DNA of 64,000 bases from Tubiluchus corallicola (lineage: Eukaryota > Animalia > Priapulida), in assembly GCA_030141605.1 (NCBI GenBank), contig JAQGDQ010000043.1:682001-746000 (forward strand), in the 5' to 3' direction. Every line of letters begins with the position of its first letter. Within the stretch, counting starts at the first letter, position 1. Of this stretch, positions 6,501 to 57,940 are shown one piece after another. A model generated the notes under the pieces. The model ran no database searches and was not told where the DNA came from. It saw only the letters and a list, made by a program, of their open reading frames with translations. Made by a program: the position numbers and the translations under genes.

Positions 6501-8439
6501 CCGGGAGCATTTGGACGGGTGCCCAATCTTCAACATAATCAGGAGAAACTGATACCATGTTTGACTTCTGAAACCTTGTGTATTCATGCTTGAGGTCTAT
6601 GTGCCGAGATCGTTCTTGTGCAAATGCTTGATCTACAGAGACAGATCTTTTCTGATGTGCTGGAAGTTTTTGGTCTGTTGGCAGTGATATTCCCCTTCTT
6701 CTTACGTTAAAGCTATTCTTTCTCTGCAATATAAATATTTAAGCAAAGAACTATAATATATTACAATCACCGGTATGAGTTTACAATTCCTCACACAATC
6801 TAAATACCCTAACCCATCCTAACCCTAACTCGAACCTCATCCTTAATCCGCTTCACCAACTAATTTCTTTTGTGTTGGAAATTGTAAATTATAGTGCAAT
6901 CTTCTAAAACTTTTAGTCTAAAATGTTTCTATAACATACCACTGTCAATGTTATCACAAGCAAAGCATTATTATGAGAATTCATATAAAGAATGTGCTGA
7001 TTAACATACTCATTCTTTAAATGCTTAATACAAGTATCCATTTGACGCAAATATAATCAATTACTCTATTAAAATAAAATTTGAAAAAATGTCTTTAAAA
7101 GCAATTTGCCACTGAGTTGTTACAACGCAGGTGTTGCTAGTCATATAAATGGTAACTTATTTAAAACGAATACATTGGGCAGCTCTTTCTAAAAAAGTGA
7201 GAAGAATTCACAGTCCTAATGAAAAAAAAACCATGAAACAGATCTGCAATACTAGAACATTTAGCGTTTGTTGAATACAGTGTTGGCTTTCAGAAAACAG
7301 AAACTGCTGTGTCTTAAACATGGCAAAAGTCACATTTGTTGTATCTTATTGTGTTTCACATCCTCCAATGTAAAAAATTCAAGTTTTTTTCTGTCATATA
7401 ATCATTAATTAATACAAGTAACTCACATTTGAAACTTGTTTAGAGGTAGGCCTGAATGCTAACTGCACATGAAGAGTATGTCCTAAAAGATTCAATTCAG
7501 AATTTGGTAGGTTAATTACAGTCAAAGTGCTCTCGACATCAGCAAATGTCACAAAGGCGTGCCTAAAACATAAAAGTTGCACCATGCAATAGAGCCTTCA
7601 AGGAGTCCAGAGACTGACTGAAGCCAATCTGAGATCAAAATCAAAAAGTGAGTGCATTTCTGAATAGTTTTGTGTCTGGAAATTTTACTAATGACTAAGC
7701 AGAACTACAGGGACTGTATTTTCTACACTGCTATCAAGATAAAACTATCAAAAAAATGATGTTAAGCAATATCACACCTACCCTTTATGCCTCAAAAGAT
7801 GTCTGTTTTGCGGTATCCAAGCTCCAGAGACTCTTCCAAATTTTTCAAAAAATTTAATCAGATCCCGCATGTTAGCTTTGAAAGGAAAATTCCTGAAATA
7901 ACAAAGAAAAAACATCATGTCAATATGCCTAAGTACTGTAGAATGAATGTGTGTTTCCAATTTGCTTAGTTCAGCTCCATTGTTATCATTATGTCTAGCG
8001 CTAAACCTACGAACAGTCTGATTTAGATAATTTTCTACTGCGCAAATTTTAATGGTTTCCTTAATAGCTTTATACACAATCTGCATTAATGCACACAAGA
8101 CAAAAATTATAATGCGGCATCTGATAACAAGACAATTTGACTAACATGAAAGTAATCTAATGATAATTACTTTACGTAAATTCGATGTGAATCATATACA
8201 ACTGTGTCTTCATAAGTCTTTGTCAGCTGTGTTGACTTAGACGCCTCTGATGAAGGTGGGTCACAATTAGTTTCAATGGTACTAGATGGCAGTGAGGCCA
8301 TGAGTTGTGCTTCGGCTTCTAAACGCTTGAGGCGAACAACTACCTTAGGATCCTTGCGGTAATCATACTTGTAAGGCCTGGCTTTAATTCGGTCATTGCC
8401 CCAGTCTTCGTCTTCTTCATGGTTTTGATATTCCTCCAT
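328..8439 (-). CDS. RRM + F-box + leucine-rich-repeat protein (architecture like 'putative RNA-binding protein EEED8.10'); 3' end continues beyond the window start
   Basis: Frame-consistent GT-AG exons: 8439-8171, 7892-7782, 7562-7427, 6723-6460, 6232-6123, 5154-5041, 4314-4217, 3423-3307, 3195-3088, 2483-2378, 451-328. RRM: RNP2-like IYVRNFP and RNP1-like KGHAFVTF. F-box: LPDDVLMYTFSFLCLKDRVRIGMVCHRW. Cys-containing LRRs: CGNSLQKLDIS, CPNLRCINLNN, CRSLKYVNLT, LQELYLKDCVALTD, LEYLDLSLVSSVTD. Confidence 0.88.
1120..2179. mobile_element. Non-autonomous Tigger/pogo-type (Tc1/mariner) DNA transposon
   Basis: TA-flanked inverted termini CAGTCGAATCCCG ... CGGGATTCGATAG, with subterminal TATAACGA/TTACGA-like repeats; lies in an intron of the F-box gene. 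Confidence 0.7.
2266..2343 (-). repeat. tRNA-derived SINE head or tRNA pseudogene
   Basis: Minus strand has A-box TGGCATAATGG (2334-2324), B-box GGTTCGAGTCC (2290-2280), partial acceptor, anticodon and T stems, then a T-run. The D-stem is poor and the anticodon position reads GGG. A related degenerate copy lies at ~52930-53045. Confidence 0.6.
3505..3545. repeat. (TA)n(GA)n compound microsatellite
   Basis: Directly visible. Confidence 0.95.
5480..5745. repeat. Degenerate trinucleotide (CAT/CAA/AAT) low-complexity tract
   Basis: Visible tcatca/aacaat periodicity; it generates the spurious Asp/Asn-rich ORF 5413-5661. Confidence 0.75.
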
Positions 8440-9239: not shown

Positions 9240-10850
9240 GCATACTTGTACGGTCTGGAACTACCTACAGACCTATTCTAAGGACAAATCTAGGTTTACC
9301 ATTCAAGGCTATATTATAAGACTGCAGTTAAAGGAAAATTCATTAATAACAAAAAATGCTGGAGAAATTTCTTGGCGATTTTATAGATTAACACAAAAAG
9401 TAATTTTAACTCTGCGAACATATATGCGATTTCCCGACATTTTTGCTGATATTGCTCAATTCTTCTTCACAAATTAACTCATTATGGAATCTGAGGCATA
9501 CTTGGTTTGAGGCATGGCCAATACAGGGTTCCATATTGGGATCTCTGTTGTTTTTACTTTACATAAATGATCTAAGTAATTTATTACATAACTCGAACCT
9601 ATTTCAGTTTGCTGATGATACAACTCTATTTTTTAATCTCTCTTCTTATTTTATAGATGAGATGAGATGCTACCTGGAATTGCAGATTGGTTCACATCTA
9701 ACATGTTATATCTTAACCCCAACAAAACAAAATGCATGATTTTTCATAACAAAAACAAAAAACTTCCAAATGATATAAACATATATTATGATGGATCCTT
9801 GATTGAACTTGTAAATACTTTCAAATTTTTTGGAATAAGTCCTTCACGAAAATTTAAACTGGAAGCCTCATATAAACATGATAAGTCAAAAAATTGCAAA
9901 AACATTGTAATAATTTAATTTACCAAAAACAAACTATGTAAATTTCATTTATTATCTTTATATAATACATTAATTTTGCCTTACTTAACTTACTGTTGTG
10001 TGTTATAGGGCAGAACTTATCCTATGAACCTGGCTATCTTAAATAGACATCAAAGAAAATTTCTCCGCAACATGAATGGTCTCTCAAAATATACAACAGT
10101 ACAAGAGTAAATCATTATTTCGAAACAGTAGTATTTTAATTTTAGAAGATTTAATTTTATTTAACCTCTCTACACATATGTACAAAACGCATTTCGGTTT
10201 ATTTCCAACTACTTCCATTAATCCAGTATTACGTAACCAAACACAATATAGCACACGTTTTAATGAATATCGTAGAACATTGTAGAACAAATCTTGATAG
10301 ACATTTTTTTAAATTCACAGCCTCTTACAATGGAAAAATATTCCTCCAAATATAAAAAGCCGCAAATCTATAAATATTTTTTAAAAATCTTTGAAACGTC
10401 ATGTTTTTGTCTTGTCTAATATATACTTATAGTGAATAATTCACTTAGTTGGTGATTCGTATCGGTTGTTTACCATCATCCACTGATGGTTTCTTGTCAA
10501 AAATCAGTTGCAGCTAATGTGAACATGGTCATTTTCTTATTTTATGTTTTCTGTCCCTTCTTCTTTCCTTCTGTTTTCTTTCTACTAACTGCAACATAGC
10601 TCTTCTTTATTCTCTTCTTTTCTCATCATCTAGCTTCTTCATTCTTTATTTCACATTTCGTGGTGGCTTAACAAGGTCCCCTTTTTAGCTACCATGCGGA
10701 AAACTTCAACACCTTAATATAGTATTTCTAGGGAGTCAGAACTTCTTTTATTTTTTGCTGTTTTCAATTATACAAGAAGTTGTACATGTATATTTGTATT
10801 ACTATTAGTTGTTTGCTGGTGAAATAAACTGAATTTAATTTGAATTACTA
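9240..10850 (+). mobile_element. Decayed L2/CR1-group LINE, 3' part (RT and 3' UTR)
   Basis: QGSILGSLLFLLYINDL...FADDTT (RT core); WFTSNMLYLNPNKTKCMIF; multiple frameshifts; ends with AATAAA and GAATT-like tail near 10825-10850. Confidence 0.85.
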
Positions 10851-12489: not shown

Positions 12490-15400
12490 ATGTCAACGAT
12501 ATTAGAAAAAATTGCGGCCATCGAAGCTGAGGTATGCACTTTCGTAGTTTTGTGTACATGTAATTTTGAATTTAAGCAAGGTGACAGTCCTTGACATGTA
12601 GTGTTGCATTTATTATCTGATTCGTTATGCCTTTTTAATCAGTTGCTATTAGTTTACCATTGCTTTGATGGTAAATATTAAATAATTCATTTTTATATAT
12701 TGCTTATGACCCTTATGTTTACTGCAGATTTTGTTCATTTTTTATGTAAAGACTTGTGTATATATATATATACTATATATACTGTTCATTTCGAATTATT
12801 GTAAATAACTTATTGTAAACTCGTTATAACAACATTGAGTAAGCCTTAGCGTAATGTTAAAATAACAACACTGCTTAAGACAAATGCATCCAGTGCTGAC
12901 TAACAAAATTAAAGTGCGAAACTAAGGTCTAATTATTTACAATAACAATACATATTTACAAACACGATATTAAAACATATTTACAAAACAATACTACATA
13001 TTTGATTTGCCCTCTGTTCTTCCTCATCTACATTAACGACTTGCCTCTTTGTTCTAACTTAAACACTCGATTCTTCGCCGATGACACATGTTTCTTTCTA
13101 TCAGACACCAATTTACAGTCTCTCCAAAATTGAACTAATTCTGAATTACTAAAAGTCAATAATTGGATGTTAGCCAACAGCTTGTCAGTAAATTTAGCAA
13201 AAACCAAGTACATGTTAATTGGAAGGAGATCACAAAATGAGAAATTGGGGTTTAATTTAAAAATAGGTAACCATGATTTAGTTCAAACCAACTGCATTAA
13301 GTACCTTGGCCTTCAAATTGATAGTAATATAAAATGGAAAACTCATATTAATACTATAACAACAAAACTAAGTAAGACTGCAGGTGTATTTGCAAAACTA
13401 CGTCACTTTATTAATATGCCAATCCTCATAATGATATATTATGCTTTAGTGTACCCATACCTACAGTACTGTGTGCTATGCTGGGGAAAAACTAAGCAAT
13501 ATATACTACAACCACTTACCACCTTACAAAACAAAATTGTTAAATTAATTACATTCTCTCATTACAAAGCACATGCTACACGTATAAACTTCGTATAAAC
13601 AGTTAGATATACTAAAAGTTTGCGATATATACAGTTTGGAACTCTTTAAGTTTATGTGCAAGTACAAAACAGGCAATATATAAGAACTATTTTTTAAAAA
13701 TAAACGAAGTCCATTCATATTCCACGAGATCCTCAGAAAAAGGTTTCTACTTTCAAAATAGGTACAAGACTCAATATGGCTTGAATTTTCTACACCATAA
13801 TGGTGTCAAACTTTCTAATAGTCTCCCTCATGAAATCTTAGCTTGCCAAACATTGCACACTGCAGTTAAAAAATTTCGCCTCTATTTAATCGGCAACTAT
13901 TCAGTTAATTAATGGATTTAGGAAAAAAAAAATTCAAATCTTAGTTTCGAATTTATCTCTTAGTTATCTTTCGGTTCGACATCTATTTCACTGAATATTC
14001 ACATAGTTTAAAAAAAGATTCAGCATTATCCTTATTGTTTATCGCTGACCTACTTTAATTATTTTTACTGGAGTTATATTTTGTTCAATGTATTTGTAAT
14101 TTGCGTAACTTCGATATTGCTTTAGTTTTTTTTGTTTTTATATTGTTTCTTATGTCGGTTTGAGTTCTTGATTTATATCTAATTATTAGTTTTGTTTTTG
14201 ATGAGTTTAAATTTTCCGTTTTGTTTGCTAATTTAAATCTTGCCTCTTCTCATAGCCAAACTTATTTACTGTCTCTAAATTTAAACTTATTTGAACTTGT
14301 TGCCTCATTTATTGTTATTTATTTTTATTTATTTTGTTAAGTTGCTTATTATTTTCATTTGTACATACCTCACTTGACAGGTCATTTAATTTTCTTTAGT
14401 TTGGATAGGGGTGGTTGACTTGGTGACCCTTGGTCTTTTCGCCACCCCGTCTCTTTTCCGTCTTTATTTTAGTTTTTACCTTTTGTTTTTGCTTATTATG
14501 TAAAATTCAGAGACAAATAAATTTTTTACTTACTTACTTACTTACTACAAATGTACATTAAATTTTACATGACATTTATATTGTGTATACATTTGACATG
14601 ACACAATTAACAAAACATGCTTTACATTACATAAATTTTGTATTCTTGATCATTTTATATAGATCAGGGTAGGTATAATTGAAAGTTGAGTCTGTGTAAT
14701 TAGTGTCAGATGAATAATATTGAATTTGGTTTTACATTGCAGAATCACAAATTATTCGCAGATTGTCTAAAAAGGAAAATCACTTCTGGTTAAGTCATTT
14801 CAAACATCTTTAACAAATGATATGAAAAAGTAAGGCTTTAAGCCCGTGTAAGCTCTCTAGCTTTCTTACATGTCAATCTTTTAATTTTTAAATAATCACA
14901 TTTGCCATAATTATCATTATATTTACATTTAATGAACTGCAGATTGTAACCTAATGTTAACTGCACTGAGTATTCTGCATTTCTATCAAAAAAGTTCCCA
15001 AGCATATTACTGCTATTAACATATGACATAAATAATTTTACGAATCTGATTTCAATTTGGGTATTCAGACAAAGCACACTTGGTAAATGAGGTAACAAAA
15101 ACCTATGAGTTTGGTATGGTAAATGCCAAAATTTACATACGCCTATGTTCTAGGAAGTATCAAGGTTATTAATAAGAGTGTTGTCAAGCTTCCTTATTTG
15201 CGAGCCATAAACGCTATGACGGTACAATTGAGATATTTTAGTCTTAATACAACTATTAAGAAACAAGAACTCACACAACACTGTTTACCCGACAAATGAA
15301 ATCTCCACATTTAAGTAGAATTTCAGCAATATCCGACAGATTAAATGTAAGATAGAGCACGTTGTCACAAAAAGACATCGGTGTGTTATTACTGTGGGGT

Positions 15401-18400
15401 GTATGTTCCAGAGAACATTCCTATGAGAATAGAAAATTATACATTTGCTCTTTACTTTGTGACAACTTATGTTTATGAAATCAGTATCATAATTTCTGGC
15501 ATACTCTTCACAATTTTTTGACATGGCCTGGAGAGCCTGTATATTCGAAGCCAACAGACTAAAGTCGTCAGCATATGCGATATTGCTACAGTACCTGCTA
15601 CCCACCATACATCCATTTTTAGAATCCCACAGTTTAGATAATAGTCCATCTAAGTACACTCCAAATAAAATGGGGGATAAAGGTGTCTTGGACTCGTGGC
15701 ACTCCAGTTATCAGTGCATCTTTATTAGTTCCAATCATGTTCTTTTCCTTCTCTGCTCCACTTTCTTCTGATGGTACTTCGGGACCTTAAATTTGGCTGT
15801 GGCAGAACCAGCACTCTCCTTTTTTCGTTAAAGAACTGATAAAAATGATCTCCACTTGTCAGTATTTTGGTTCTCCTCTTCTGCACACTCACTGTTTGAT
15901 GTAGTCACACTTTTCACCTTTGCTTGACGATTCTCGATCGCCGACGAATTATTTGTCTCAGCATCATTTTCTATAGTCCTCATCGTAACAATTGCCTTTC
16001 TATTCTATTTTTCAGACATGCTCCTCTGACCTTAGCAGGTTCATGTTCAACTTTTGACTAGGCGGTCTTCTACAGCACACATATTCACTTCCTTGGAACA
16101 TATTTTGGCAATTGGTCTAAGTTTTTCGCCACAAACTGAAATAATGCACGATCGTCACTTGTGTCTAGATATTTCATGGTATCAAATATGTCGCAAAAAT
16201 CTGCTTTATGTGCTGATCTAACTGCAGTTGAACGTCTATTTGGTATTGTAGGCAAGACTTGATGCACTCATCCCATAAATCACATTTAGCTTTACTGATC
16301 TTATTTATTAAGTAAAAGCTTAGTAAGACTGTTTTAATGCATCATTAGAAATAAATTGTGCATGGTGAAAGCAGTATGCAAGCACCTCATTACTTTGTGA
16401 TAATGTACGTTATCAGGCGCATCGTCAAAAAAGTCGCTGGTCATTCTCCTCTTTGACAAAAGCCTCCGTTATTTGTTACAGGCACCTTTTCTCGGCAGGA
16501 TAACGAGGTTGTTGCCCTACTGACTACTGTTCCTACAACTCTTCACAGACCATTCAGAAATACTGAATATTAGAGTATTTTTCAATTTTTTAAATCTGAC
16601 TTCAAGATTTACCTTCAATCATTTGCAGCTGTCAAGTTCTGCATTCCTTTATGGTTATACTTATATAACTGCTAGTGTCGCAATTGATAAATACCTTAAA
16701 TTACAAGAAATTTGCACAAAACACATACATACAAGAAAACACATACATACACAATATAAACATAAGTTCTAATTAACTGCAATTTTTCAATAATTCAGAT
16801 GGCAAGGACTCAAAAGAATAAGGCTACTGCAGGTCATCTGGGATTACTAAAGGCACGTTTGGCAAAACTACGCCGAGAATTGATTGCTCCCAAAGGTGGA
16901 GGTGGAGGTTCAGGAGAAGGGTTTGATGTTGCTAAAACAGGAGATGCACGGATTGGATTTGTTGGTATGCTGAAAATTGAAGCTTGTTTGTAGAAATCAG
17001 TTGAATCACAAAATTATGATTGTGGGTGTGCATTCTAATTGACACATTATGGGTTAGTTGTACTAACTGGGCTTTATGAATTTATTAATAACAATAATTG
17101 TTATTATTATTAATTTTTGTAATTTTTAAGGGTGAGTTTAGAAATCGGGATAAAGAGCTGACCAGTATACAGTTGTGGCCAGAGTTGTTATTGCAATGCG
17201 GGCAGTGTTACTTTGTTTGAAAAAGAATTTCAAAAGCCCTTTTTGTACGTTCTCAAGCAGTCAAAGGTCAGCTCCTTGATCTTACAAGTTTTCTTGCTTT
17301 GAATTCTAGTTGTGTATCAGTCAAGCTAGGGTTGCTTTTTTTTATACAAATTGTCTGAGACAGACCCAGCAAGCTAAAATCCAGTATTTGACAATTGTAT
17401 TAAAGTCAATGTAGATGGTTTTGGCAAGACCAGAATTGGCTGATTGCCAAGCATGGGTTTCTAAGATAAGACACTGAACTAGCAGTTGTGTCTTTGTCGC
17501 ATTCAGGTATTGCACAATGTTGTATTGTGTAATAATTTCAGGCTTTCCTTCAGTTGGTAAATCAACATTGTTAAGTAATCTTGCTGGTGTATACAGTGAA
17601 GTTGCTGCTTACGAGTTCACCACTCTCACAACAGTGCCAGGAGTAATAAAATATAAAGGTGCTAAAGTACAAGTAAGTTTTTTATTGTTTTGGATGAAAA
17701 TGTGTTGTGAACTCAACAGCATTGAACAACTCGTTGTGTTTTTTTTACTTGAGAGGACTAATTTTTAATTTCACTTGACTTGAATGTTGCTACAGGTGTT
17801 TGTCAAACAAACATTGGTGACTTAGTTCTGAAATCAATTTAGTGTTGAAAAATGTTTTACATTTGGCTGAGCAAACCCGCGTTTGTGCTTAGTGCTTACA
17901 ATGCGTGCTTTCCCTAAAGCAAAGAATGACATTCTGTTCCAATTTGACATTATTTCCACTTTAATGACATGGTAATTTGTTTGCAGTTACTTGATTTACC
18001 AGGGATCATTGAAGGTGCAAAGGATGGTAAAGGTAGAGGAAGACAAGTCATAGCAGTTGCAAGGACATGCAGTCTGATATTTATAGTGCTAGATGTACTT
18101 AAACCTTTAGGTAATTGTAGGTCATTTTGTTCACAATTGACAGGAGTAAATACCAGATAGTTGATTATCCAGCAACATATGTTGTAAGTCTTCTTATTTC
18201 ATCGAAAATCTCTTCAGTGACGACTAAAATTAGTCACAGTTCCTGGAGTTTGACAATCTATATTCCTTTGCAATAATGCAATATATTAAGCAGCGAGTTA
18301 ACATAATCCGGGTAGCTCATACTTTCCAAAAGAATTTTTGTAATGATTTAATAAAATTGATCCATACAGAAGATACAGTCAAAGTCATTATTGGTAGTGA

Positions 18401-21400
18401 CATATTTTTGAGTACGTCTTGTCAATGAGTTGAAGTTACAATTATTTTCAATTTGAGTAGTAAGTACATGACATCACATCACTTGTATTTGTGATTACTA
18501 AATTCTTTTTGATAAATGTAGGTCATAAAAAACTTATAGAAAAAGAATTAGAAGGATTTGGCATTCGGTTAAATAAGCGACCACCAAACATCACATTTCG
18601 GAAGAAGGATAAGGGAGGTGTAAATTTAACATCCTTGGTAAGCAAGACTTTTCTAATGCTTTGTTACATATAGTTCTTCCAGTAAAAGCACTCATAATTT
18701 GTACTAGTTATTTAAAAACTGGATTTCAGTTTTACGAAGAGCACGTAAGCTTATTTTAGTTTGTTTTACTTATATGTTGTGCATCCAGAAACTGTTATTT
18801 AATTGCAATTACCGTATTTTCCCATGTATAAGAGACCCTTGTGTATAAGAGACCCCTTCAATTTTTAGGCAAATATTCTGGAAAAAAGTTTTTTGGTAAT
18901 GAATAACTTTATTCATCATAGAAACCAGTTAATGTGTTGTAGAAAAAGAGTACTGGTATATATTAAAGTGCGTACCTGCAAACCTGTAACAGGAAGAGAA
19001 AACGAGGAGATAATGCCTGTGTCACGATGCTTGTATTGCTTACAACCGCTTCATAGTCGAACGCGGCACGCCTTGCTTAGGCTGACTCATCTGGTTGACC
19101 TCTGCCGACGTATCAATGACATCGACGGGCATGCAGAGAGCTTATGCAGATGCGTTGATTGGCTGCAGAACAATCGATTTCTCTCCAATACCAAAGAGAC
19201 ATTTAAAAAAATAATAACTTACCCGGTACATTAATTTTATCATTAGAATTTAGCCATGGAGAAGATTTATTGAAAGGAAACTATAATTATTCGAAATAAA
19301 ACAGTTGTAGAGCACTTATTTCTTTAAAATCATTAGTGTCACAATTTATGCATCTTATTGAAAAGACTTACTCCCATGTATAAGAGACCCCCTATTTTTA
19401 AAGTGAAAATTCTGAGCAAAAAAGGGTCTCTTATACGCGGGAAAATATGGTATTTATTATACAACAGGTCACCCAGTCGGAACTCGATCTTGATATGGTT
19501 AAAACAATTCTTGGTGAATACAAAATTCATAACGCGGACATAACACTCAGGTATTGTAAACATTTTTTTTATCAAAAACTGCCACTTTTTTGTAAAGAGA
19601 TTTGAATTTGAAATGACAATATGAAATGACGGTTGCTAGACTACAGTCAAACTTCATTATACCACCCCCGTTGTACTGCCAAATTCATTTACCGTCTGCA
19701 ACATGGTCGGGAATGAAATGGCAATTTTCAAATTGTTTATTTTTAATGAAGCATTACGGTCTTTAAACATTAATCATTAAGGATACTTAAATTCAAAAAC
19801 ATTGTAACACATTCATTTTTCTAAGGTAAGCCACTCCATCAAACTTGAGGTTCTATACTCAAAACCTCCTTGTGTTTTTGTATTAGAATTCTTTATCAGC
19901 AATTTTGCATCACAGCAGATAAAAGCGAAAAAACAAAATATTGTACTTATTTTAACTTTTTTTACAGTTTTAATAATAGTTGGTTTTGCAAAAATGTTTC
20001 GGTTCAGTATCGGTTTCCTGTGTTTCATAAATTTCGGTTTTAGTTTGTAAATTCAGTTTCGGTAACATCCCTGATTAGCGTGAGCGGCTTCTCGATATAA
20101 TGCTAGCTGTACATCAGTACGAGGCTGCTACACGCTCTGCTGAGTCTCTGACACTGACCAGATGTCACGTTTTGTGTAAAATAATGCATGTTATCATGTT
20201 TCGATTGTTAGCAAGCTGTACTGTACATTTCACAATCACAATAATATTATTGTCAATACCGTGCAGTTATTGTATCAACTGAAAAGAAAACACTTTTTTC
20301 ACCAACAAGATGCATGATATTTGTTTGTTTTCTAAGATTCATTCAAGCTAATTGTGGCAAGAAATTTGTAGTTATGACATAACCTTTTTACACATGTATG
20401 TTTAGTCGTGTAGTAGGTCTAAGGTACTCAGTCTGTTACATAGTTAAGTATACGTTTATAATGGAAACAAAAAGTTCTTAACAAAGATAACTGATTTCGA
20501 GAGTCATTAATTAACAAATGATTAATTTAATAATTTTCTTTTAACTAATTAACATTTAGAATATAAATTGAGGATTCTAATTTGTGTACACTTGTTTGAT
20601 TGCTTTGTGATTCATCTATGACAAAATTTAACACACCCTTTATAACACCACATGCTATATTGCCAACTTTTTCTGGTCCCAATGTGAGCAGCATAAAGAG
20701 GTTTGACGATACTACGATAAAAAGTGCACGTCATCAGTATGTTAACATAGATTAAAATTGAATTAAAGCAAATAAATGAAATTTTGTAACATTTTGCTAA
20801 TGAATTCTTACGACTCTTGGGCTAATTTTAGTTATGCAGCAGCATCTATATTATTAATACGATTTCGACTTTTTAATAGGTACGATGCAACTCCAGATGA
20901 TCTTATTGATGTTGTCGAGGGCAACCGGGTCTACATCCCCTGTATTTACATACTGAACAAAATTGACCAAATTTCAATTGAGGTGCTTGTAACAATAATA
21001 TCAAAATCATGTGTCAGTTTATTTCTTTTTTTGTTCCATAATTTTTTATCTAAATATTGGTTCCGTGCTGTGTCAGAAAGGAAATGGTTTTATTATTGAC
21101 TTTTTTATAGTGAAAAAGTTTAATGCTGCTATTGTCTAATATAATTGTTGTGCTTATTATATCTAATCATACCCAGACTATTCAAATTATTAGCACTTGT
21201 AAAATCTGGGAGTTTAGTACCTTGTGAAGTTAAATAATTTGTAGTTTCATGTATCTTTCAATTTCTGATTTATTGCTAATTTCAGTCTAATTTATTGTTG
21301 TTTTATTAGTACACATTAAGTCCTCGCTTAACGACCCCACTTACTTAACTCAGATCACAGTAGCACTACTAAACTGACAGCAGACAATCAGCTACAGCTA

Positions 21401-24017: not shown

Positions 24018-27000
24018 TTAGACTTGAGACAAGCACTCTGCCCAATGAGAAGCCGTCTTATCACAATTGCCTTTACCTTCATCGCTATCCTATAAAAAAT
24101 CATTCAACCAATGTTGATGATGAAGTCAAATTACACCGCATATTGTACTTAAAAAATCAGGCATAGACTATGAAACACACATTTATTAAAATGTCAAATT
24201 TATATGCAGGTTAATGTTTAGTCTTTCAGATAATGATTTATCAGCAAAAATTAGCAATAAAGATGAATTGAATGGTTAATATGGTTGGCAAGCTTTTACA
24301 TAATCCAAAAATCTACAACAAAATTTTCTATTTACCTCCAGTTGTTTGTAGCACCCTTTTTTGTGTTTGATGAGGTCTCCCCACAGAACTATTGTTTTGC
24401 AAACTGGGCAGTATCCATCTACAGGGATTAAAAATTTCCTGGTTTCTTCATTGTTTCCCAAAAAGTGTTTGGCCAAACATATCATGTGACTTTTGCTAGT
24501 GCAGCTTGGCAACAAGCAGTTAACTATGTGTTCTGGTTCCTGTACAAGGAAAAACAGTCCCACTGTAACTAATCACGGAATTTAATTACTGGCACATATC
24601 AAATGAAAACCTTTGGTTTACAAAAATATTCTTAAGGTCCCCGGGAAACAGATACAGTATGTATTGCAAAAATTAAATCAATTCTTTACAGATGTATGCA
24701 ATTAAGAGGCATTTACTATTTGATGCAGTCCAAATAATTGGATAATTTTGATTAGAAATACAGTTTATCATTTCTTTACCAATTATGCAGCGCAACTGCA
24801 GCAATGTTATATAGCAATAGTAAGACTGCAATCATTTTCCAACAGATTTACACATAATAATAACATAACAAGTGTTTACCACAGTAAAAAATGCATGCAA
24901 TCACAAATATTTTTATCATTATACCACTTGTTTATTTTTAGGTGCTAATTTGATAATCTGATTTTCACAGATTATTTATTTTTAATTATGGAAATAATTG
25001 TTTCTGCATGAGTTTCTGCAGCTAAGTTAACTTATACAATGTTACAGTATATATCAATAAACACTACACACTAACTCATTATAATAAGCTTGCGCTCCTG
25101 TAGCAGAATAATTTGCACATTTCTAACTTTTTTTGTACAGGCGCTTTTGCTTGAATTTGGATCCTCTCTCGAATTTGGGTCCCCACAAGGCAGCTACACT
25201 ACAGCAATCAAGAGGAAATATATTGTTGACTACAGTGTTTAATTTGACAAACCTTCAATGCTTGTTGACATATAGAGCACAACTGTTGCTCCTGCAAATC
25301 CTTGTCTTTATCAATTCTCTTCTCAAAAGTATCTATAGCAGTAACCTGAAATCATCAAAGTACATATTAGCTGCCTATTTGGAGGCTATAAACATGGTTC
25401 TAATAAAACTGATAAGCCTACTAATGCAATATGTGTGTGAATTTCAGATTGCAAAACAATCCTCACAATTATCACTGCAAGTTAAAGACACCTTACATTA
25501 TTTTTCTATAGTTTCCATGAAAATTGCAAGAAAAAATGCATGCCTTTTTGCTCTTGACCAGTCCATAAGATATGCACATATGACTCGGTGGGTATAAACC
25601 TGCCGGAAAATCTAACTGATATTCTTGTTTAATCCAGCGGATTGTTAGTGGAAATCGGCACCACGGACCTGTTCGTAACATAATGCATGCTACACGAAAC
25701 AGGTATTCGTATTTCTTTTCGGGGGCTTTCTTCTTGACTCCAGATATCTTTTGTAATCGTCGAGACTTTTGAGGATGCTGCCAAGCCCATTCAAACTAAA
25801 TTTCAGAAGCAAATTCAAATGTATAAAGTTCTATTATACATACAAAATCAATAGGTTGTTACAAGTATAAGCGATGCACAAAATATATTATCTGGAAAAA
25901 AGCACAGAAGTAATTTATTACCATAAACCATAATTTATTACACCAATGAAGCTGATTACAAAATTAGAATTATTTTGAATGCCAACTTCTATTAGCACAA
26001 TTTTTTTTCAAATTATATTTTCCTTTTTTTTGTAAAATAAGACTGTTTGCGTAATTAATGCGGTTGGTCGAATCCTTTATTTCAGGAGAAATATTTCGTT
26101 ACTTCTAAGCAGCTGTTTGCTTGAAATTTGTGTAAATCCTTATTTTCCACACATTACACAACAGCAGCAGATGTACATATAATGATTTAGTATCTAATGA
26201 GAAAATTAGTGCCTCGCGTAGGTTGGCATAGTACATTTATAAGTGATGCAAAAATGACTTCATCATACCCTTAATGCAGATATTTCATTAGGAAAACCAT
26301 GTATAATTAGTATCATCTCCCTAGAAAACAAACCATAGCTGATTATAAAACTGGGTTCTGAATCAGAGCAAAATTTCCAGCTACATATTAAAATATTTCC
26401 AAGTTTGAAACTCCTGCCATATTGGTCAGTATGTCGCATACAATAATGACGTTCATAAAAACTAGTTGGTCAAATGCCAGGAAATTTAATGCTATACCTA
26501 CCAACCTATTAAGTTTTTCAATTTCAAATTTTAGATCACATAGTAAATTTAATGTAGAGGAGAATTAGAGAACTGCTTTGAATGTTTTTTCCTATACAAT
26601 TTAAATCACATTCTAAACAATTACCAGCAGAATTTAATGACTAAACACTCCTACGATTCACCTTTTCTTCATTTACAATGTGCATGTTAAGTGAGCTATA
26701 CTGACAGCTCGGTTGTTGCTCGCACTTCCTAATCTTATTGACGATGCTAATCATTTTTGATTAACTTCCTAAATTCCTTTTGTGCCTTGGTATGTTACGC
26801 TCAATTGTAGAGTCTTACCATGGTCCCCGTCCACTCGTCCTGTAGGCTCCTCCAGCTTTTTTGCCTTTGTTGTGCTGTCTGATGCGTCGATTTGGGTTAT
26901 TAGTGAAGCCAATATATGTAAGGCCTTTGTATTTAGGATTTGTGCAAATTAACAAGTAACATCCAAAAAAGTTCTCCACAGTATTGACATCTGCCATCAT
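24018..27000 (-). CDS. SLX1: Structure-specific endonuclease subunit SLX1 (GIY-YIG plus RING-like zinc domain)
   Basis: Exons 27000-26819, 26320-26269, 25795-25544, 25345-25253, 24539-24336, 24089-24018. Motifs: FFGCYLL...[17 protein letters not shown]...[28 protein letters not shown]; CSIC...C..PSC...H..CLA..F...LIP..G.CP.C...WGDL. A probable 5' UTR donor lies at 27473. Confidence 0.95.
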
Positions 27001-27099
27001 TACTAAAGTACCCAACAAAATTTGTCTCAGAAAATATGAACTACAGTATTTTCAAAACTGAAAACTTAAGAAAAACGTTTTTCAGTTAGCTTATTATTT

Positions 27100-27400: not shown

Positions 27401-30400
27401 CATCATGCACAAGTCACATTAAATACCAAAACTGCAGCGTCATCAACCAAGATGTACAAATACTGTAACTTACCAAAGTTATTTCCACAAAAAAACATAT
27501 TTGAATGTAAATTACATAATTTAAAATCGACTACTAACATTAACACAATTTAGTTATTAGTTCTTTTACTTCTGACTATTATTTTGATGTGGAACATTTA
27601 TGCACTTTTTGAAGATGCAGGTAACAAAATATATTACTTTGTCAGCGTCAAGACCTAGATTTACCTATGGATAGTTGTTTAATTTTCAGCTCAGCACAGT
27701 AACCTTTGCCGATACTAACGTTGTCAACAGAGGGCAGTACCAGTACCTATTTTATCTATGTACTCTGTATTTTTTGCATGTAGTATGTGAGCTTCCAAAC
27801 ATTTAATATTTCCTGTATTCTTGTTTTAGATCACAGTGTAATGTATCTGCCACGCCTCTTTAATTTATATATTTCAGGTAGACCATTGTTTTACATGCAA
27901 ACACCTTAGAATGAACATTACTTTAGGTTATGGTCCACCAAAAGTTTCAACGGTCACTCTAAATGAGATTTCCATTTCTAGACTTACTTGTATTAAATTG
28001 TTATCACCTACTTTTGCTGACATTTTCTACTTGACATTGATTCTGTCAGCTTATTTACTGCCATTTGTCTCTGGTACAATATTTCTGTAACCTCAACACC
28101 CAACACAACCACCATAAAAACAAAACACTAAACAAATGAGTTAAACTATAAAAGCTCCCCACTTAATAACTTTAACGAAGAAAAAGATCAGAACTTCGAA
28201 AGTGACGTAAGAAGAACTCCAACCATTTACAAAAATAATACAGACAGTTGAAAATGATAATTTTGACAGTGCTAAACTTTAGATAAATGTTACAGTGATA
28301 AGACACAGTGATTTAGTGAAGTTAAAGGTTTGAAGCAATTAACAGAAGTTGATGTAAAAGCGAGTGTATAACACACAGCTGCCAAACACATAATACTACA
28401 CGTATCATGCAGTTCACAAGAGAAATGGCAAAAAGGCTTACAATAATGTTAATATTGATATTGATTATCATACATCCTAGCACTTAGCTCATTAATTTAT
28501 CTGGCTGTTTTCATGTTCTGGGAAAGCGTAAACAATAAAACAATGCATTCTACGCCAGTTTCTTCTAAAGCACACTAATGTGCACATTGTGTATTATATA
28601 CGCTGGCGCATATTGAATATTGTATACGATATTTTACGGTATACGCGACACTAAATTTTGTCATGTATCTAGTTCTTTTGTGACGCACATTCCTGTTGTT
28701 TACTGACTGGTTTCCTGTCACATACTATATTTCTGAAATAAAATTTTACATGTTAAATGCAGTTACATTCTAATAAAATGCTAATCTGAACTTACAGTGT
28801 GTTTGTCTGCTTAATTCACTTTAATTCAGTTTTAAAAATGTAATAGTTGCTATTTTTCACAAAAATATCTCGTTATTTGTATGTATACTTGCTTCCACTT
28901 CTGCAGAGAGTCAAGCTGCTACAGTTACATTGTCTGATACCGATTCTGAATTTGTCAGTATCGCGACGGCACTATCGTGTTATTCTATTTACTGCCTTTC
29001 CAGACCTAAAAGTTATGCTAGTTTGATGCCAGATTGCTTAGTCATTTTTTGGCTTCTTTTTTGCGACCTTTGACCTCTCGCGACTGGATGCACAACACAA
29101 GACGAACGTATTTTTGAAACTTGAACCTTCTGTGCTCGAATTTTGCACTAAATGGCTCTGGGCTGACGCTCTCAATAGCTTCCCTCTGGCGTGTAGAAGT
29201 AACTTGAAAATCACCTATTTCCTTTTACTCGTAATGCAGGCTGCTGAAAAATACGGATTCAGCTACAACACACAAAATCCACAGTTTTATCTTTAAGACA
29301 AACCTAACGTTTTCAAAAACGAAAGGGGAATAAACAACAGAACTGAAATTCCCGCGGCTATAATAACACTAGCAGCAATACAAATTACACAATGAGGGCA
29401 ATCTTTCTTTAAAATGAGCATCATGTGCACCAGTACGACTCTAACAGGGCTTAAGAAAAAATACTACATTTACACATTTTTCTCAGTGGAACACATCGCG
29501 CAAGACATAATAATGTGTTAACAAGAATTTGCAGTTAACCATGTTTGTGGATTTCGCTATCGTCATGCTGTCTAATTGACTGCAGCTTCTTCAAATCATC
29601 AATATTATTGACTTGAGCAGGGTCGGAACTAGATGTGGCAAGCAGGGGGGGGGGGGGCGCTTGAGTCAGCTCAAGTCACTTGAGATCAAATGAATATAAT
29701 TATAGCATCAGCAAATAACAACGATGGATTAATAGAAACGATAGGCCAAGGCCTACTTTGTTGAAGTCTGGTGTCAACCATAGAGAAGTATGTGAACCAA
29801 GAGAGTGCACTATCTCAATGGTTAACAGATCTGCCAATTTCATGATTAGGGTATAATGCCAATTGCTGAATCAGAAAACGAAGCAGACTGTGCTGTGACA
29901 AAAACCAGAATAAGGTTGCCATAAGTGCTACACTAGCTGGAATCTGGGCATGGCGGAATAACTGTTCTAGCCTAGTCCTGGTACTGGAATCTGGACAGGA
30001 CGAAAGAATGGACGCAGTGGGACTAAGCAATGAGAAGTACAAAACTAATGTTGATGTGGATCACATTCTAAAAGAATTTATGATGAGCAGAGCACATACA
30101 TTAGCGATTTGATACAATACAACACAATGCAATGTAATATAGTATGAATATAGCAAATATAAGTGACTTAGAGTGGAGTCCCAGCACACTGAGTGCAGAT
30201 GTAAAATGATACATTAGGACCTTAAAGAACAAGAAAAGGGGTACCTGAAGTGGTTTCAGAAAAATCGCCTTAAAAATTATGTTACTTTATAGCAACTTTA
30301 TGCGTATATTGTACTCCCATTAAAAGGATTTTTTATTTGTTTTCATTTTAAATTTCCCACGACACTGTTTCGACCACGCCATTACATGGCGTCATACACG

Positions 30401-31204
30401 CACAACGTAAATCAGGGGAAGAAAAGTTATTGTTAAACTATGTCCCAAAAAACTTTCCATGCAAGAAAGAAAACTATTAATCATTTGAAATGCTTTCATC
30501 AATTGGTAAAATGTTGCTGACTCACCCTCACATAACTTCGAGAAAGGCAAAGAGAGGGAAGTGAGTGCGTGCGTGCGTGTGTGCATGTGCGTGAGGGTCT
30601 GTGTGTGGGTGCATGTTTGTTTGAATGAGTATGTTTTTGCATACAATTACATAAACATATGATATATAGCCCATCGCACAATTTACCACATACTTATTCC
30701 TAGAATTATAGTATTATACAGAAAAAGTACTGTTCACATAGGTATGTATAGTATGCAAAAGTTTATATTTATGTATAAATATTGAATTTCTGTCGTACAC
30801 AAACTACAAATCCTAATTAAAATACGCGACATATATAAAAAGATTAAAAACATAAAATACAGTATTAAAAAACATGCACGGACTACTAACATATTTACAA
30901 GAGAAAATTAATTTGTAGGTAAATAATTTAAAACACATTATTATTAAAAATGGACAACCTATTTTAGACTAATGTAAAATTAATTGCATAGCCATAAAAC
31001 TCCTGTGCACATTTGTTTCATACAAATTTTTAATCACTGTAATTAATTCATACTTTATTTTGCACACTGTTCAGAAAGTTACGACTGACTACAGATTTGA
31101 CAAATTTTATAATTGAGTTACCAGTTATTAAATCATACTTATATGTAAAGTTCCACACATTCTTCCAAAACTTGCGATACCCATGATAATAATGATTATA
31201 AACA

Positions 31205-32591: not shown

Positions 32592-33953
32592 TTACGTTTC
32601 CATACTGGACTCGGGTGCCTTCATCTGCGATTGCTCGACAGACGGCAGCTCCTTTGTTCCAGTGGCAACGTCGGGGGTTTTTCCACCCTCGGTACTCACT
32701 TCTGGACCCTTATCCACCGTTTGAACAGGTGTTTCCGGTTCCTTGGCTTTCCCTTGGTTTTTCTTTTTCTTTTTGGACTGGAACGTGACTCGTTTGCATC
32801 CGGCGTACGGAGCAAACTCCAGTCGTTCCAGACCTGACAGGGACGGTTCCCAGACCGCTACTACGTGTAGCATTCCGCCGACCCCTTTTGACCCACCGCG
32901 GACCTCCATGTGCTTCCGTTGGAGTTCCGAATTACATCGGTCCACCAACATCAGCAGATCCTCGATTTTGATATCATCCTCATCCGGAATCCAAACCCCG
33001 AAGGTCCTTGCTGGCGGAAGATCTTTCGGTCCTCTCGCCTCGTACCCCGGGTGGCCCACAGATGGGTTTTCAATGTCCAGGACAAGCTGTTTTGCCCACT
33101 CCAGGGTTTTCTCGTCCTTGCACACGACATGGACTTTACCTTCATGTAGGTAGGTCCTCTCAATGCGGACAAGAAACCCCGGATCTGTTCTGAGAAGGAC
33201 ACGGTTGATCCCCGACTGTATTGCCCGTAAATCCGAGCCGTCCAGAGGGTCTTCTCCCGCGTCCTTTTTTGTAATTTTAAGGTGTTGGCCGCCAGACTTC
33301 ACAGCCTTGGCGTATGAGGCCTTACTGCTTCCTTCTGTGCCTTCACCCTTTTGACCTTCCTCTCCCTTACGCCCCGCTTGCCCGGAGTCACCCCGGGGTC
33401 GCTTCACGTTCGAGATCGGACTTGGAGTTGAGAGAGCGCTGCTCGTTCTCTTTTTCACCACCGATGGGTTAGGAGTGGGAGCCTCCTCCTGATTGGCGAT
33501 CGACATAGCGGACACACCTTTCAGAAGTCGTCTCTTTTCCTTCTTCCGCCGTTTTTTTTCATGATTTTTCCCCATCGGTTTCGATTCCTCGGGCTTGCTG
33601 GGCTCATTTGGAGCACCAGGATTCCGGGTATCTACTCCTTCTGGGGCAGGTACGGTGTTCAGAGTATACTCTGACGATGCCGAACCTTTACTGGTCTTTG
33701 TAGTCCATGGATTCCCTTTTTCAGAGACTTGCATGTCCTCAGTTTTCGTTTCTTCCAAGAACTCCGTAATTTTCGGCTGTTCTGGTTTCAAATCTGGTTC
33801 ACGGGAAGATCCGGCTTTCACCGGCTTGTTCCCTGCAGCTTCGTTTAAATTTTGATGACGGGAAGATCCGGCTTTCACCGGCTTGTTCCCAGCAGGTTTT
33901 AATTTTGTTAGGGTAGGGAGCCGTGCTGGACTCGATTTTTCTTTCTCGTTCAT
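32592..33953 (-). CDS. Retrotransposon ORF1 (gag-like nucleic-acid chaperone)
   Basis: Long open frame (first ATG 33953) with a Lys/Ser/Pro-rich N-terminus, the SYAKAVK motif, and G...VVCKDEKTLEWAK (reminiscent of the DUF4780-type ORF1 of LOA-like elements). Confidence 0.8.
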   Translation of the reverse strand: MNEKEKSSPARLPTLTKLKPAGNKPVKAGSSRHQNLNEAAGNKPVKAGSSREPDLKPEQPKITEFLEETKTEDMQVSEKGNPWTTKTSKGSASSEYTLNTVPAPEGVDTRNPGAPNEPSKPEESKPMGKNHEKKRRKKEKRRLLKGVSAMSIANQEEAPTPNPSVVKKRTSSALSTPSPISNVKRPRGDSGQAGRKGEEGQKGEGTEGSSKASYAKAVKSGGQHLKITKKDAGEDPLDGSDLRAIQSGINRVLLRTDPGFLVRIERTYLHEGKVHVVCKDEKTLEWAKQLVLDIENPSVGHPGYEARGPKDLPPARTFGVWIPDEDDIKIEDLLMLVDRCNSELQRKHMEVRGGSKGVGGMLHVVAVWEPSLSGLERLEFAPYAGCKRVTFQSKKKKKNQGKAKEPETPVQTVDKGPEVSTEGGKTPDVATGTKELPSVEQSQMKAPESSMET

Positions 33954-34463
33954 TTCATAAGTTTGTTGGTTTTTAAAGCGGGTAAACTCCAACCCAGGAG
34001 CCGACTGGCACTCACCAGCCCCCTCCGACCGGAAGAGATCAGGGACCTAGTACTGACGGACTTGTCAACGAAAGGTGGCCTCGGGAATGCCCCCCCAACG
34101 CACTCGCAGGCCCCTATCCAGTCGCCAACTGGAGCTACGAGTGCGAGGAGATTTTCACGAGTTGACGGAGGCAGCCCTCCCAGGTGGCTAGACCAGGAGC
34201 GGGCCTCTAGAACTACCTCGTGGCCGCGGCACGGAGCGCGTTTTAGACCTGTACCCTCCTTCACGATGAGATTCCGTCATAGGTTCCTTTCCCTCCCCCG
34301 CCTTTAGAGACAAGGTTCATGACAGCCGGTGGCCTTTGGAGGACAGACTCAGATTACGGAATGGGGAAGACTTCGGAGAAAACAGGCTTCTCGCTTTCGC
34401 TTGTTCCTGAGTTCCTAATTCTCCCACCACGCCCCATCCTTGTTCATTCCCCAGCAGCCAGGG

Positions 34464-34554
34464 TGTTCCTAGTCAGCCAGAATCATTTGATAACCCTCGG
34501 GTCCATCATCTGTTGCCCGCGCGACACCACGTGGAGGTCAGGAACATGCCACGC
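34464..34554 (-). ncRNA. HDV-like self-cleaving ribozyme at the retrotransposon 5' end
   Basis: Minus strand: P1 GCGUGGC/GUCGCGC; J1/2 A; P2 UGUUCCUG/UAGGAACA; P3 ACC/GGU with L3 UCCACGU; GG for P1.1 followed by GCAA; P4 CAGA.UGAU..ACCC-GA-GGGU.AUCA..UCUG; J4/2 GCUGAC with candidate catalytic C. Confidence 0.85.
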
Positions 34555-35437
34555 TGACTTGAAGGGTAAATACAAAGTATTTGTTCATGGAGATGAGAAA
34601 AGCTCACATACGGGTGTTGGTTTTGCTTATTTGTCAGATTTCTCGTGTACGTTTGATAATACAAGTTCCAGAATAGTTGCACTAAAGACAACAGTTGGCA
34701 AGAAGAAATTCACAATTTTGAATGGCTATGCTCCAACATTAATAGCTAGTGAAAAAGATCCGAAAGTAAGAGAAAATTTCTATGATGACCTGGATAACTA
34801 TATAAATACTGTGCCAAAAACTCATATTTTGATCATCTGTGGAGATTTCAAAGCTAAAATCGGAGTACTACATAGCAAACTTCCAAATCACATTGGTAAA
34901 TAGGGAAAAGGCAAAGAGAACAGAAATGTAATTCGATTAGCAGAAACTATAGTAACCAGAAACCTAATTGTAAGCAACTCAGTATTCCACCACAAATATG
35001 CGTATGTAACAACTTGGCAAACGACACATAAGAATAAAAAATCATGGAACAGCGAACCAAGGAGAAATCCCCTCAGAAACCAAATAGACTTCATACTAGT
35101 CAGAAGAATACATATGAGACTAGTAACCAACTCAAGATCATACTCCGTCACACTCTTTGCCATTACTATGGACCATTCCCTAGTAATTGCACAGATGTCA
35201 CTAAAGTGGGTAAACATAAGGCACAAAAAACATCAGATAAAGCACTAGATGTACAGAAACTAAAAGACTCGAATGTTTTAAACGATTATCAGACCAAGCT
35301 TAATGAAAATTTAAGTGACAAGCACTTTGAAACTGATGCTGCTCAACAATGGGAACAATTGAAAAAAATCAATGAAGAATGCTGCTGCTGAAACCATTGT
35401 TAATTCGACATGTGACTCCAGAGATGATGATGATGAT
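34555..35437 (+). mobile_element. RTE-like LINE remnant (endonuclease part joined to a (GAT)n tail)
   Basis: GVGF...SSRIVAL...YAPT...ENFYDDL...ICGDFKAKIG...TW...RNQIDFILV, with a stop at ~34900 and frameshifts; ends in GATGATGATGATGA at ~35423-35437. Confidence 0.8.

Positions 35438-41322: not shown

Positions 41323-57940
<16,618 letters not shown>

What the first reader, a model, noticed from the sequence alone, without database searches (positions are those of the whole stretch)
34464..34554. HDV-like self-cleaving ribozyme marking the 5' boundary of a LOA-like retrotransposon
Seen: the minus strand folds into all HDV double-pseudoknot elements. These are a 7-bp P1 GCGUGGC/GUCGCGC, an 8-bp P2 UGUUCCUG/UAGGAACA, P3 ACC/GGU, L3 UCCACGU, P1.1 GG, a hairpin P4, and J4/2 GCUGAC. 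Unrelated RTE endonuclease sequence resumes right next to the predicted cleavage site G34554. Known: HDV-like ribozymes process the 5' ends of R2, RTE, LOA (Baggins) and other non-LTR elements, mostly described in insects. Inference: the element's RNA 5' end is made by self-cleavage of a read-through transcript. This copy may be an undescribed ribozyme variant (G-C first pair, 1-nt J1/2, atypical J4/2) in a non-insect animal. If still active it would cut any minus-strand transcript crossing it.
Basis: partly seen in the sequence, partly recalled or inferred. Interest (0 to 1): 0.85.

Follow-up and report, generated by a model that had tools for sequence, protein, structure and literature searches.

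The report
Self-cutting RNA heads a young retrotransposon
The first 91 bases of a multi-copy jumping gene in this animal genome contain every part of the hepatitis-delta type of self-cutting RNA, which likely trims the element's own transcript to its exact start; this is a known trick of such elements, not a new kind of RNA.

Summary
Observation confirmed. Minus-strand 34554-34464 holds all HDV double-pseudoknot parts; it is the only descriptor hit in the window (2 hits in 300 shuffles). It starts exactly where a GC-rich two-ORF non-LTR element (DUF4780 ORF1; endonuclease 60% identical to EN-RT-RNase H proteins) abuts an interrupted RTE-like endonuclease. In DNA runs, contigs of RTE paralogues stop matching at 34555, and one contig of another copy shares the ribozyme but has a different flank. 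This copy is dead (frameshift, cut off at 31200); other copies continue into the RT. The 'variant' claim fails: G1-C is in a published descriptor, and the 1-nt J1/2 and GCUGAC J4/2 each occur in 4 of 14 fully folding metagenome RNAs with the same core. LOA is already listed among LINE clades with 5' ribozymes. Cleavage, LOA membership by tree and the host phylum are untested; the one full-length relative with flank shows no canonical fold. The scan noted HDV heads on RTE and Vingi elements in other genomes, none resembling this 5' UTR. Verdict: new member of a known kind.

The parts
34464..34554 (-). HDV-like ribozyme, 91 nt; predicted cleavage 5' of G34554
   Evidence: Sequence, descriptor and shuffles, Rfam HDV models sub-threshold, element map
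34548..34554 (-). P1 5' strand GCGUGGC (G1 = first base of the element)
34539..34546 (-). P2 5' strand, preceded by the 1-nt J1/2 (A34547); fraying of the top U-A pair would give 7 bp plus a 2-nt linker
   Evidence: one search lists the 5-8 bp registers
34526..34538 (-). P3 (ACC/GGU) and L3 UCCACGU, with U20, C21, C22, C24, G25 of the catalytic core
   Evidence: required positions from PMC6326823 passages
34517..34525 (-). P1 3' strand GUCGCGC and P1.1 GG
34478..34512 (-). P4 hairpin region
   Evidence: fold -7.8 kcal/mol, pair probability 0.56-0.91 once transcribed
34464..34477 (-). J4/2 GCUGAC (candidate general-acid C34476) and P2 3' strand UAGGAACA
   Evidence: C at this place in 13 of 14 natural look-alikes
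33954..34554 (-). 5' UTR of the element, about 600 nt, with nine upstream AUGs
32592..33953 (-). ORF1, 453 aa, intact, DUF4780 (PF16012)
   Evidence: Pfam E 3.7e-07, above cut-off; 18 relatives at 39-49% identity
31200..32591 (-). 5' part of ORF2 (APE-type endonuclease), frameshifted near 32176 and cut off at 31200; RT and RNase H are missing in this copy
   Evidence: Pfam PF14529 E 4.3e-19; 58-71% identity to full EN-RT-RNase H proteins in two frames; loose ends at 31200 and a contig running 2312 letters further
34555..35391 (+). Older RTE-like endonuclease fragment into which the element inserted; lacks its first 50-60 residues
   Evidence: 717 relatives at E<=0.001, six long ones are single EN-RT proteins of about 1000 aa without RNase H; paralogue contigs match from 34555 only; GC 0.37 vs 0.58 across the junction. 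The label RTE rests on that layout and is recalled, not from a named hit

Best explanation
The 91 bases are the 5' end of a young, multi-copy two-ORF non-LTR retrotransposon and contain all parts of an HDV-like ribozyme that likely cuts its own RNA just before G34554, so that the template RNA would start at the element's first base whatever lay upstream. Shown: the structure-compatible sequence, its orientation with ORF1/ORF2, and its start at the element boundary. Inferred: co-transcriptional folding (P1 first, then P3, P1.1, P4, P2), Mg2+-dependent cleavage with C34476 as general acid leaving a 5'-OH on G1, transcription by read-through from host DNA, and possibly help with cap-independent translation across a 600-nt leader with nine upstream AUGs. 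Because the ribozyme stays on the downstream product, each full-length new copy inherits it. This particular copy can no longer move on its own: it is frameshifted and lacks RT and RNase H.
For: Only descriptor hit in the window, 2 hits in 300 shuffles. Same 21-base fixed core in 57 metagenome loci; 28 of 43 distinct ones have 6 of 6 free P1 pairs against a swap control of mean 2.3, max 8; 15 different P1 and 11 different P2 pairings, C at the catalytic place in 13 of 14 when any base was allowed (the loci fall into related groups, so they are not independent). Boundary: RTE paralogue contigs in two studies (X2 record 13, X3 record 22; 24 differences in 221) match from 34555 and leave 72-77 letters unmatched beyond; X4 record 31 matches 34296-34555 with 1 difference and then has 31 unlike letters, read as another copy with another flank; X2 record 12 begins at 34550 with 0 substitutions and 2 gaps. 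81 of 97 protein alignments of RTE-like relatives start no more than 3 residues before the junction, and GC steps from 0.37 to 0.58. Element contigs are deeper than flank contigs (X3: 122 in the 5' UTR and 150 in ORF2 vs 8-17; X2: 46 and 110 vs 10-18), read as roughly ten near-identical copies (inference; the tool warns depth is no copy number). P1 forms with probability 0.82-0.99 before P2 is transcribed in 7 of 8 leader/length settings. [quoted passage not shown]
Against: No cleavage or RNA data. Rfam scores are below gathering. The shared 5' end rests on one contig of another copy plus one branch point; no listed contig bridges this window's own 5' junction, and 5754 pieces were not shown. 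Copies are too alike to show covariation. A single-nucleotide J1/2 gave little cleavage in engineered Agam-2-1 ribozymes (PMC4908430, part 1 of 4). P1 has two G.U pairs, and the full-length minimum-energy fold pairs the P1 3' strand with J4/2 instead (nested folding only). The one full-length relative with flank, L058 (DUF4780 ORF1, ORF2 36% identical to P0056), shows no canonical HDV fold at its 5' end. 16 of 97 protein alignments run 5-41 residues into the ribozyme's antisense frame.
Confidence: 0.8

Rival explanations
1. The fold is a real HDV-like ribozyme but slow or vestigial; the element is transcribed from an internal promoter at +1 and the ribozyme at most trims occasional read-through, as in the dual promoter-ribozyme end of L1Tc.
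For: L1Tc's first 77 nt are both promoter and ribozyme, and downstream sequence can switch the ribozyme off (PMC3383444, abstract and section 3). Short J1/2, two wobbles in P1 and a competing P1'/J4/2 pairing. This copy sits antisense in an RTE-like fragment, so the family does not target one transcribed site. L058 lacks a canonical fold.
Against: All core nucleotides and all five helices are intact, and the collapsed contig of several copies has no substitution over 34550-34020, which fits retention in the active lineage. The same 1-nt J1/2 plus GCUGAC build occurs in natural look-alikes such as L040 and L026.
Confidence: 0.14
2. The ribozyme's main effect is on host RNA: it cuts minus-strand transcripts that cross it, for example a long SLX1 leader or an antisense RNA.
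For: SLX1 lies on the same strand, with its start codon near 27000, about 7.5 kb downstream. An active ribozyme cuts any RNA that contains it (established mechanism).
Against: No host exon was found upstream on the minus strand; the FOG-type zinc-finger gene is on the + strand. The motif is shared by dispersed copies with different flanks, so it belongs to the element, not to this locus.
Confidence: 0.04
3. The motif is a chance pattern, or the antisense of the RTE-like endonuclease coding sequence continuing past 34555.
For: The + frame stays open through the motif, and its translation resembles the endonuclease motif that belongs there: 16 of 97 alignments and a profile (posterior 0.5-0.7) extend into it. 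Rfam E-values 0.3-0.7, folding z 0.18.
Against: RTE paralogues at 89% DNA identity stop matching at 34555; another copy carries the motif without the RTE flank; GC jumps at the junction; descriptor hits are about 0.007 per shuffled window; the residues that mimic the motif are dictated by the fixed ribozyme core, which unrelated metagenome RNAs share.
Confidence: 0.02

Closest known systems
5' HDV-like ribozymes of LOA-clade (baggins) and RTE non-LTR elements (Ruminski et al. 2011, not held; seen only through PMC6765202, PMC5786205 and PMC3774820 passages)
   Same: HDV fold at the exact 5' end of a dispersed non-LTR element, in sense with the ORFs; relatives have EN-RT-RNase H as LOA elements do (PMC2790886, passage).
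   Different: Host is an unidentified animal; no sequence comparison with baggins ribozymes was possible; activity untested; clade not confirmed by a tree.
R2 ribozymes (PMC3774820, parts 1 and 4 of 7 and passages)
   Same: Same double pseudoknot; 6-7 bp P1, P2 of 5 bp or more, variable P4; cleavage at the element's 5' junction as in Drosophila, sea squirt and tick R2, with slightly ragged junctions.
   Different: R2 is single-ORF, rDNA-specific and Pol I co-transcribed, and many R2s borrow P1 from 28S rRNA; here P1 is wholly element-encoded and the target is a dead RTE-like copy.
L1TcRz / Pr77 of Trypanosoma cruzi (PMC3383444, abstract and section 3)
   Same: Ribozyme in the first 77-91 nt of a non-site-specific LINE, cutting before +1.
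   Different: L1Tc has a proven internal promoter in the same bases; none was tested here; different clade and host.
Rfam RF00094 (HDV) and RF02682 (F. prausnitzii HDV-like), and metagenomic HDV-like RNAs
   Same: Near-identical P3/L3/P1.1/J4/2 core; 57 metagenome loci share the 21 fixed bases.
   Different: Scores below gathering; those RNAs are not in non-LTR elements (1 of 57 loci had any RT match, 27% identity). [quoted passage not shown]

Membership tests
HDV-like ribozymes | P1 of 6-7 bp beginning with G1 paired to C or U | tested here: met
   7 bp, G1-C, two G.U; G1-Y in the descriptor of PMC6326823
HDV-like ribozymes | 3-bp P3 closing L3 with the conserved U, C and G; two-pair P1.1 (CC/GG) | tested here: met
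   ACC-UCCACGU-GGU and GG at 34518-34517
HDV-like ribozymes | P2 of 5 bp or more and a P4 hairpin | tested here: met
   P2 8 bp; P4 -7.8 kcal/mol
HDV-like ribozymes | J4/2 with catalytic C followed by N-R-A | tested here: met
   C-U-G-A-C; the stricter CRRA of PMC6326823 is missed at position 2, but U there is the Rfam consensus and GCUGAC occurs in 4 of 14 look-alikes
HDV-like ribozymes | Score at an Rfam gathering threshold | tested here: not met
   29 vs 50 bits (RF00094) and 25.3 vs 44 bits (RF02682); these two models describe the viral and one bacterial RNA, so this bars those Rfam entries, not the structural class
HDV-like ribozymes | Covariation of the stems among homologues | tested here: inconclusive
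   Strong among unrelated RNAs with the same core; none possible among this element's near-identical copies
HDV-like ribozymes | Mg2+-dependent self-cleavage lost in the C-to-U control | not testable with these tools
   bench assay needed
Retrotransposon 5'-end ribozymes | Cut site coincides with the element's 5' end, in sense with the ORFs | tested here: met
   Boundary within 1-4 nt of G34554 from paralogue contigs, one other copy, protein homology and GC step
Retrotransposon 5'-end ribozymes | Element RNA begins at G1 with a 5'-OH in vivo | not testable with these tools
   needs stranded RNA ends from the host
LOA clade (I group) | Two ORFs; ORF2 with APE endonuclease, RT and RNase H | tested here: met
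   Closest full ORF2 relatives (57-60% identity) carry PF14529, PF00078, PF00075; RNase H in known LOA elements per PMC2790886. Not unique to LOA (recalled); RT and RNase H are lost from this copy
LOA clade (I group) | RT groups with LOA, TRIM, bilbo, Lian, baggins in a tree | not tested
   No named LOA reference came back from three protein searches; named hits were hypothetical proteins of a moth, a ctenophore and a psyllid. That DUF4780 ORF1 marks LOA is recalled; two papers mention DUF4780 in the library (listing only)

The most novel reading that the evidence does not exclude
This is an active 5' HDV-like ribozyme of a LOA-type LINE outside the insects, in a family that is still moving, has no promoter of its own, and uses the ribozyme both to free its RNA from random host transcripts and to start cap-independent translation past nine upstream AUGs.
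Probability: 0.3. Interest if true: 0.45.

Novelty: new member of a known kind. Interest (0 to 1): 0.3.

Why it matters
It adds a compact, fully element-encoded HDV-like ribozyme on a young, dispersed LOA-like LINE to a list drawn mostly from R2, RTE and trypanosome elements, and would widen the host range of LOA-type ribozymes if the host is not an insect. With about ten near-identical copies it is a clean test case for whether non-site-specific LINEs live off read-through transcription plus self-cleavage. It does not change what is known about the ribozyme class or its mechanism.

Tried and rejected
No whole genome is held for this window, so copies could not be collected and aligned; a closer read-level view of the junction was not obtained, and the 5'-end evidence is what one search shows. 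No RNA holder listed. Searches for related loci with the ORF1 alignment found none in metagenome or viral contigs, nor with the ORF2 alignment in viral contigs; the prokaryote genome collection gave 79 loci, of which 7 were non-LTR-like and examined, 1 (L058) with ORF1 and 5' flank; a relaxed HDV scan found 0 hits in the 7, and Rfam and a looser parse found no credible fold in L058. No second copy or RT remnant of this element elsewhere in the window. No target-site duplication can be read because the 3' end is lost. A MAFFT alignment of 13 look-alikes put P1 and P2 out of register, so pairs were counted by register in scripts instead; there 59 matches were reduced to 43 by collapsing identical contexts and dropping those under 30 nt from a locus end. 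Bacterial promoter scan: nothing, and not informative for an animal. Antisense-coding origin rejected (see rivals). 'Undescribed variant' rejected. Paper searches for a LOA ribozyme outside insects found none: 'HDV-like ribozyme'+'baggins' gave 3 papers, 'self-cleaving ribozyme'+'LOA'+'LINE'+'invertebrate' 0, an RT motif 0; the key paper (Ruminski 2011) and its supplements are not held and may already list such cases. PMC11203168 (passages) mentions neither LOA nor ribozymes. Host phylum was not determined.

Full report
Observation. The minus strand from 34554 to 34464 reads as a complete HDV-like double pseudoknot: P1 34554-34548 with 34525-34519 (7 bp, G1-C, two G.U), a single A as J1/2, P2 34546-34539 with 34471-34464 (8 bp), P3 ACC/GGU around L3 UCCACGU, GG for P1.1, a P4 hairpin, and J4/2 GCUGAC with the candidate general-acid C at 34476. 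My descriptor, written from the general consensus after seeing the sequence, finds this site alone on both strands of the window; 300 shuffled windows gave 2 hits and 3000 shuffles of the GC-rich element 1 hit. Two of Rfam's four matches in 28-40 kb are HDV models at this place, both below gathering score and with E 0.3-0.7. Nested folding energy is ordinary (z 0.18). In a growing transcript P1 forms first (0.82-0.99 in 7 of 8 settings before P2 is complete); once the chain is complete the nested model favours P2+P3+P4 in most settings, and its best fold pairs the P1 3' strand with J4/2, a possible misfold.

Is the core a real ribozyme signature? A scan of metagenome contigs for the 21 fixed bases of P3-L3-P3', P1.1 and J1.1/4 returned 57 loci with 59 matches. 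After collapsing identical contexts and dropping matches near locus ends, 28 of 43 have all six free P1 pairs within 24 nt upstream, against a mean of 2.3 (max 8) when P1 strands are swapped among loci. With a 30-nt reach 29 of 43 have P1, 14 of those 29 also have a perfect P2 of 5 bp or more, and 13 of the 14 have C at the catalytic place though any base was allowed; 15 different P1 and 11 different P2 pairings occur. The loci come in related groups and are not copies of this element (1 of 57 had an RT match), so this supports the fold class, not the element's history.

Is it a variant? No. G1 paired with C or U is fixed in a published descriptor, along with the L3 U, C and G and the CC/GG pair, all present here (PMC6326823, passages). 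G is the first base in 23 of the 29 look-alike P1 helices, opposite a C that my pattern forced; J1/2 is 1 nt in 4 of 14 and J4/2 is GCUGAC in 4 of 14. The descriptor's CRRA is missed at position 2, but U there is the Rfam consensus. One caution: in engineered Agam-2-1 ribozymes a 1-nt spacer gave little cleavage (PMC4908430, part 1 of 4); here fraying of the top U-A pair of P2 would give a 2-nt linker and 7 bp.

The element. About 600 nt downstream, after nine upstream AUGs, lies an intact 453-aa ORF1 with DUF4780, with 18 relatives at 39-49% identity. ORF2 follows directly; its endonuclease is 58-71% identical to proteins with endonuclease, RT and RNase H, the layout of known LOA elements (PMC2790886, passage) though not of them alone (recalled). 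This copy has a frameshift near 32176 that the deep contigs of other copies lack, and ends at 31200, where contigs of other copies run on, one for 2312 letters. Element contigs are several to fifteen times deeper than flank contigs and differ from the window by 0-10 letters per contig; I read this as a young family of about ten copies, with the 5' UTR nearly as deep as ORF2 in run X3 (122 vs 150) but less so in X2 (46 vs 110). LOA membership was not tested by a tree: no named reference came back.

The boundary. On the + strand from 34555 lies an endonuclease fragment whose long relatives are single EN-RT proteins of about 1000 aa without RNase H, RTE-like by recalled layout, lacking its first 50-60 residues. 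In one search, paralogues of this fragment from two studies match from 34555 and leave 72-77 letters unmatched beyond it; one contig matches the element from 34296 to 34555 with one difference and then has 31 unlike letters; another, at about four times flank depth, begins at 34550 with no substitution. GC rises from 0.37 to 0.58 across the junction and 81 of 97 protein alignments start within three residues of it or later. So the element begins at G34554 within 1-4 bases. Limits: one contig of another copy, no listed contig bridging this window's own junction, most pieces not shown. The 16 alignments that run into the ribozyme reflect a chance likeness of the antisense core to an endonuclease motif; the DNA evidence excludes a coding origin.

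Mechanism. By the established chemistry of the class (PMC6326823 and PMC10879173, passages; PMC3383444, section 3), the RNA would fold co-transcriptionally and cut 5' of G1, with the J4/2 C as general acid, leaving the ribozyme on the 5'-OH downstream product, which is the template for new insertions. That explains why boundary and predicted cut site coincide. Read-through transcription and IRES-like help for translation are proposed for such elements (PMC6765202, passages) and are inferred here. An internal promoter in the same bases, as in L1Tc, remains open. A role on host RNA is unlikely: SLX1 starts about 7.5 kb downstream on the same strand, the FOG-type gene is on the other strand, and no host gene was seen to span the site on the minus strand.

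Against generality. The only full-length relative with 5' flank, L058 (DUF4780 ORF1; ORF2 36% identical to P0056), has a GC step and a 6-7 bp helix at about position 237 but no canonical HDV fold by my scans or Rfam. The ribozyme may be patchy in this lineage or too divergent there.

Comparison and novelty. [quoted passage not shown] The primary LOA paper was not held, so I cannot say whether non-insect LOA cases are in it; my searches found none. The host is an animal (FOG-type zinc-finger gene, own knowledge); another note of this scan calls it likely non-arthropod, which I did not test. The scan has noted HDV-like heads on RTE and Vingi elements in other genomes and a tandem HDV array in this genome, and no look-alike of this 5' UTR. 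Verdict: a real, well-formed, probably functional HDV-like ribozyme at the start of a young LOA-like LINE; a new member of a known kind; interest 0.3.

Noticed in passing
window 17478-21096 (+), 24279-27051 (-), 55270-57940 (+), 7781-8140 (-): Host genes: exons of a DRG-type GTPase (PF01926, PF16897), SLX1 (GIY-YIG and SLX1_C), a FOG/U-shaped-type zinc-finger gene (PF25445) with a 2-kb exon, and a weak RRM exon.
   Followed up: partly
L001-L057: Many unannotated HDV-like RNAs with the identical catalytic core in metagenome contigs, with compensatory P1 and P2; L016/L017 hold two such motifs about 1.16 kb apart on one strand, and L030 has one near an RT-like gene.
   Followed up: partly
L058:237-295: A full-length DUF4780 / EN-RT-RNase H element binned into a bacterial MAG; its 5' end has a 6-7 bp helix enclosing a hairpin and an L3-like stretch but no complete HDV fold; possibly a decayed or divergent ribozyme.
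   Followed up: partly
window 34500-34554 (+): Read antisense, the HDV core translates to a peptide that mimics the endonuclease motif expected at that very place of the interrupted RTE-like frame; judged chance.
   Followed up: yes
window 30400-30586 and 30774-31199: Very deep repeat with many loose ends at 30400-30586, and an AT-rich repeat abutting the element's 3' break at 31200.
   Followed up: no
window 29870-30112 (+): 80-aa frame that resembles the C-terminal dimerisation region of hAT transposases (recalled; no Pfam hit).
   Followed up: no
window 9410-10005 (+), 12936-13595 (+), 15288-15707 (-): Decayed RT fragments of other non-LTR families.
   Followed up: no
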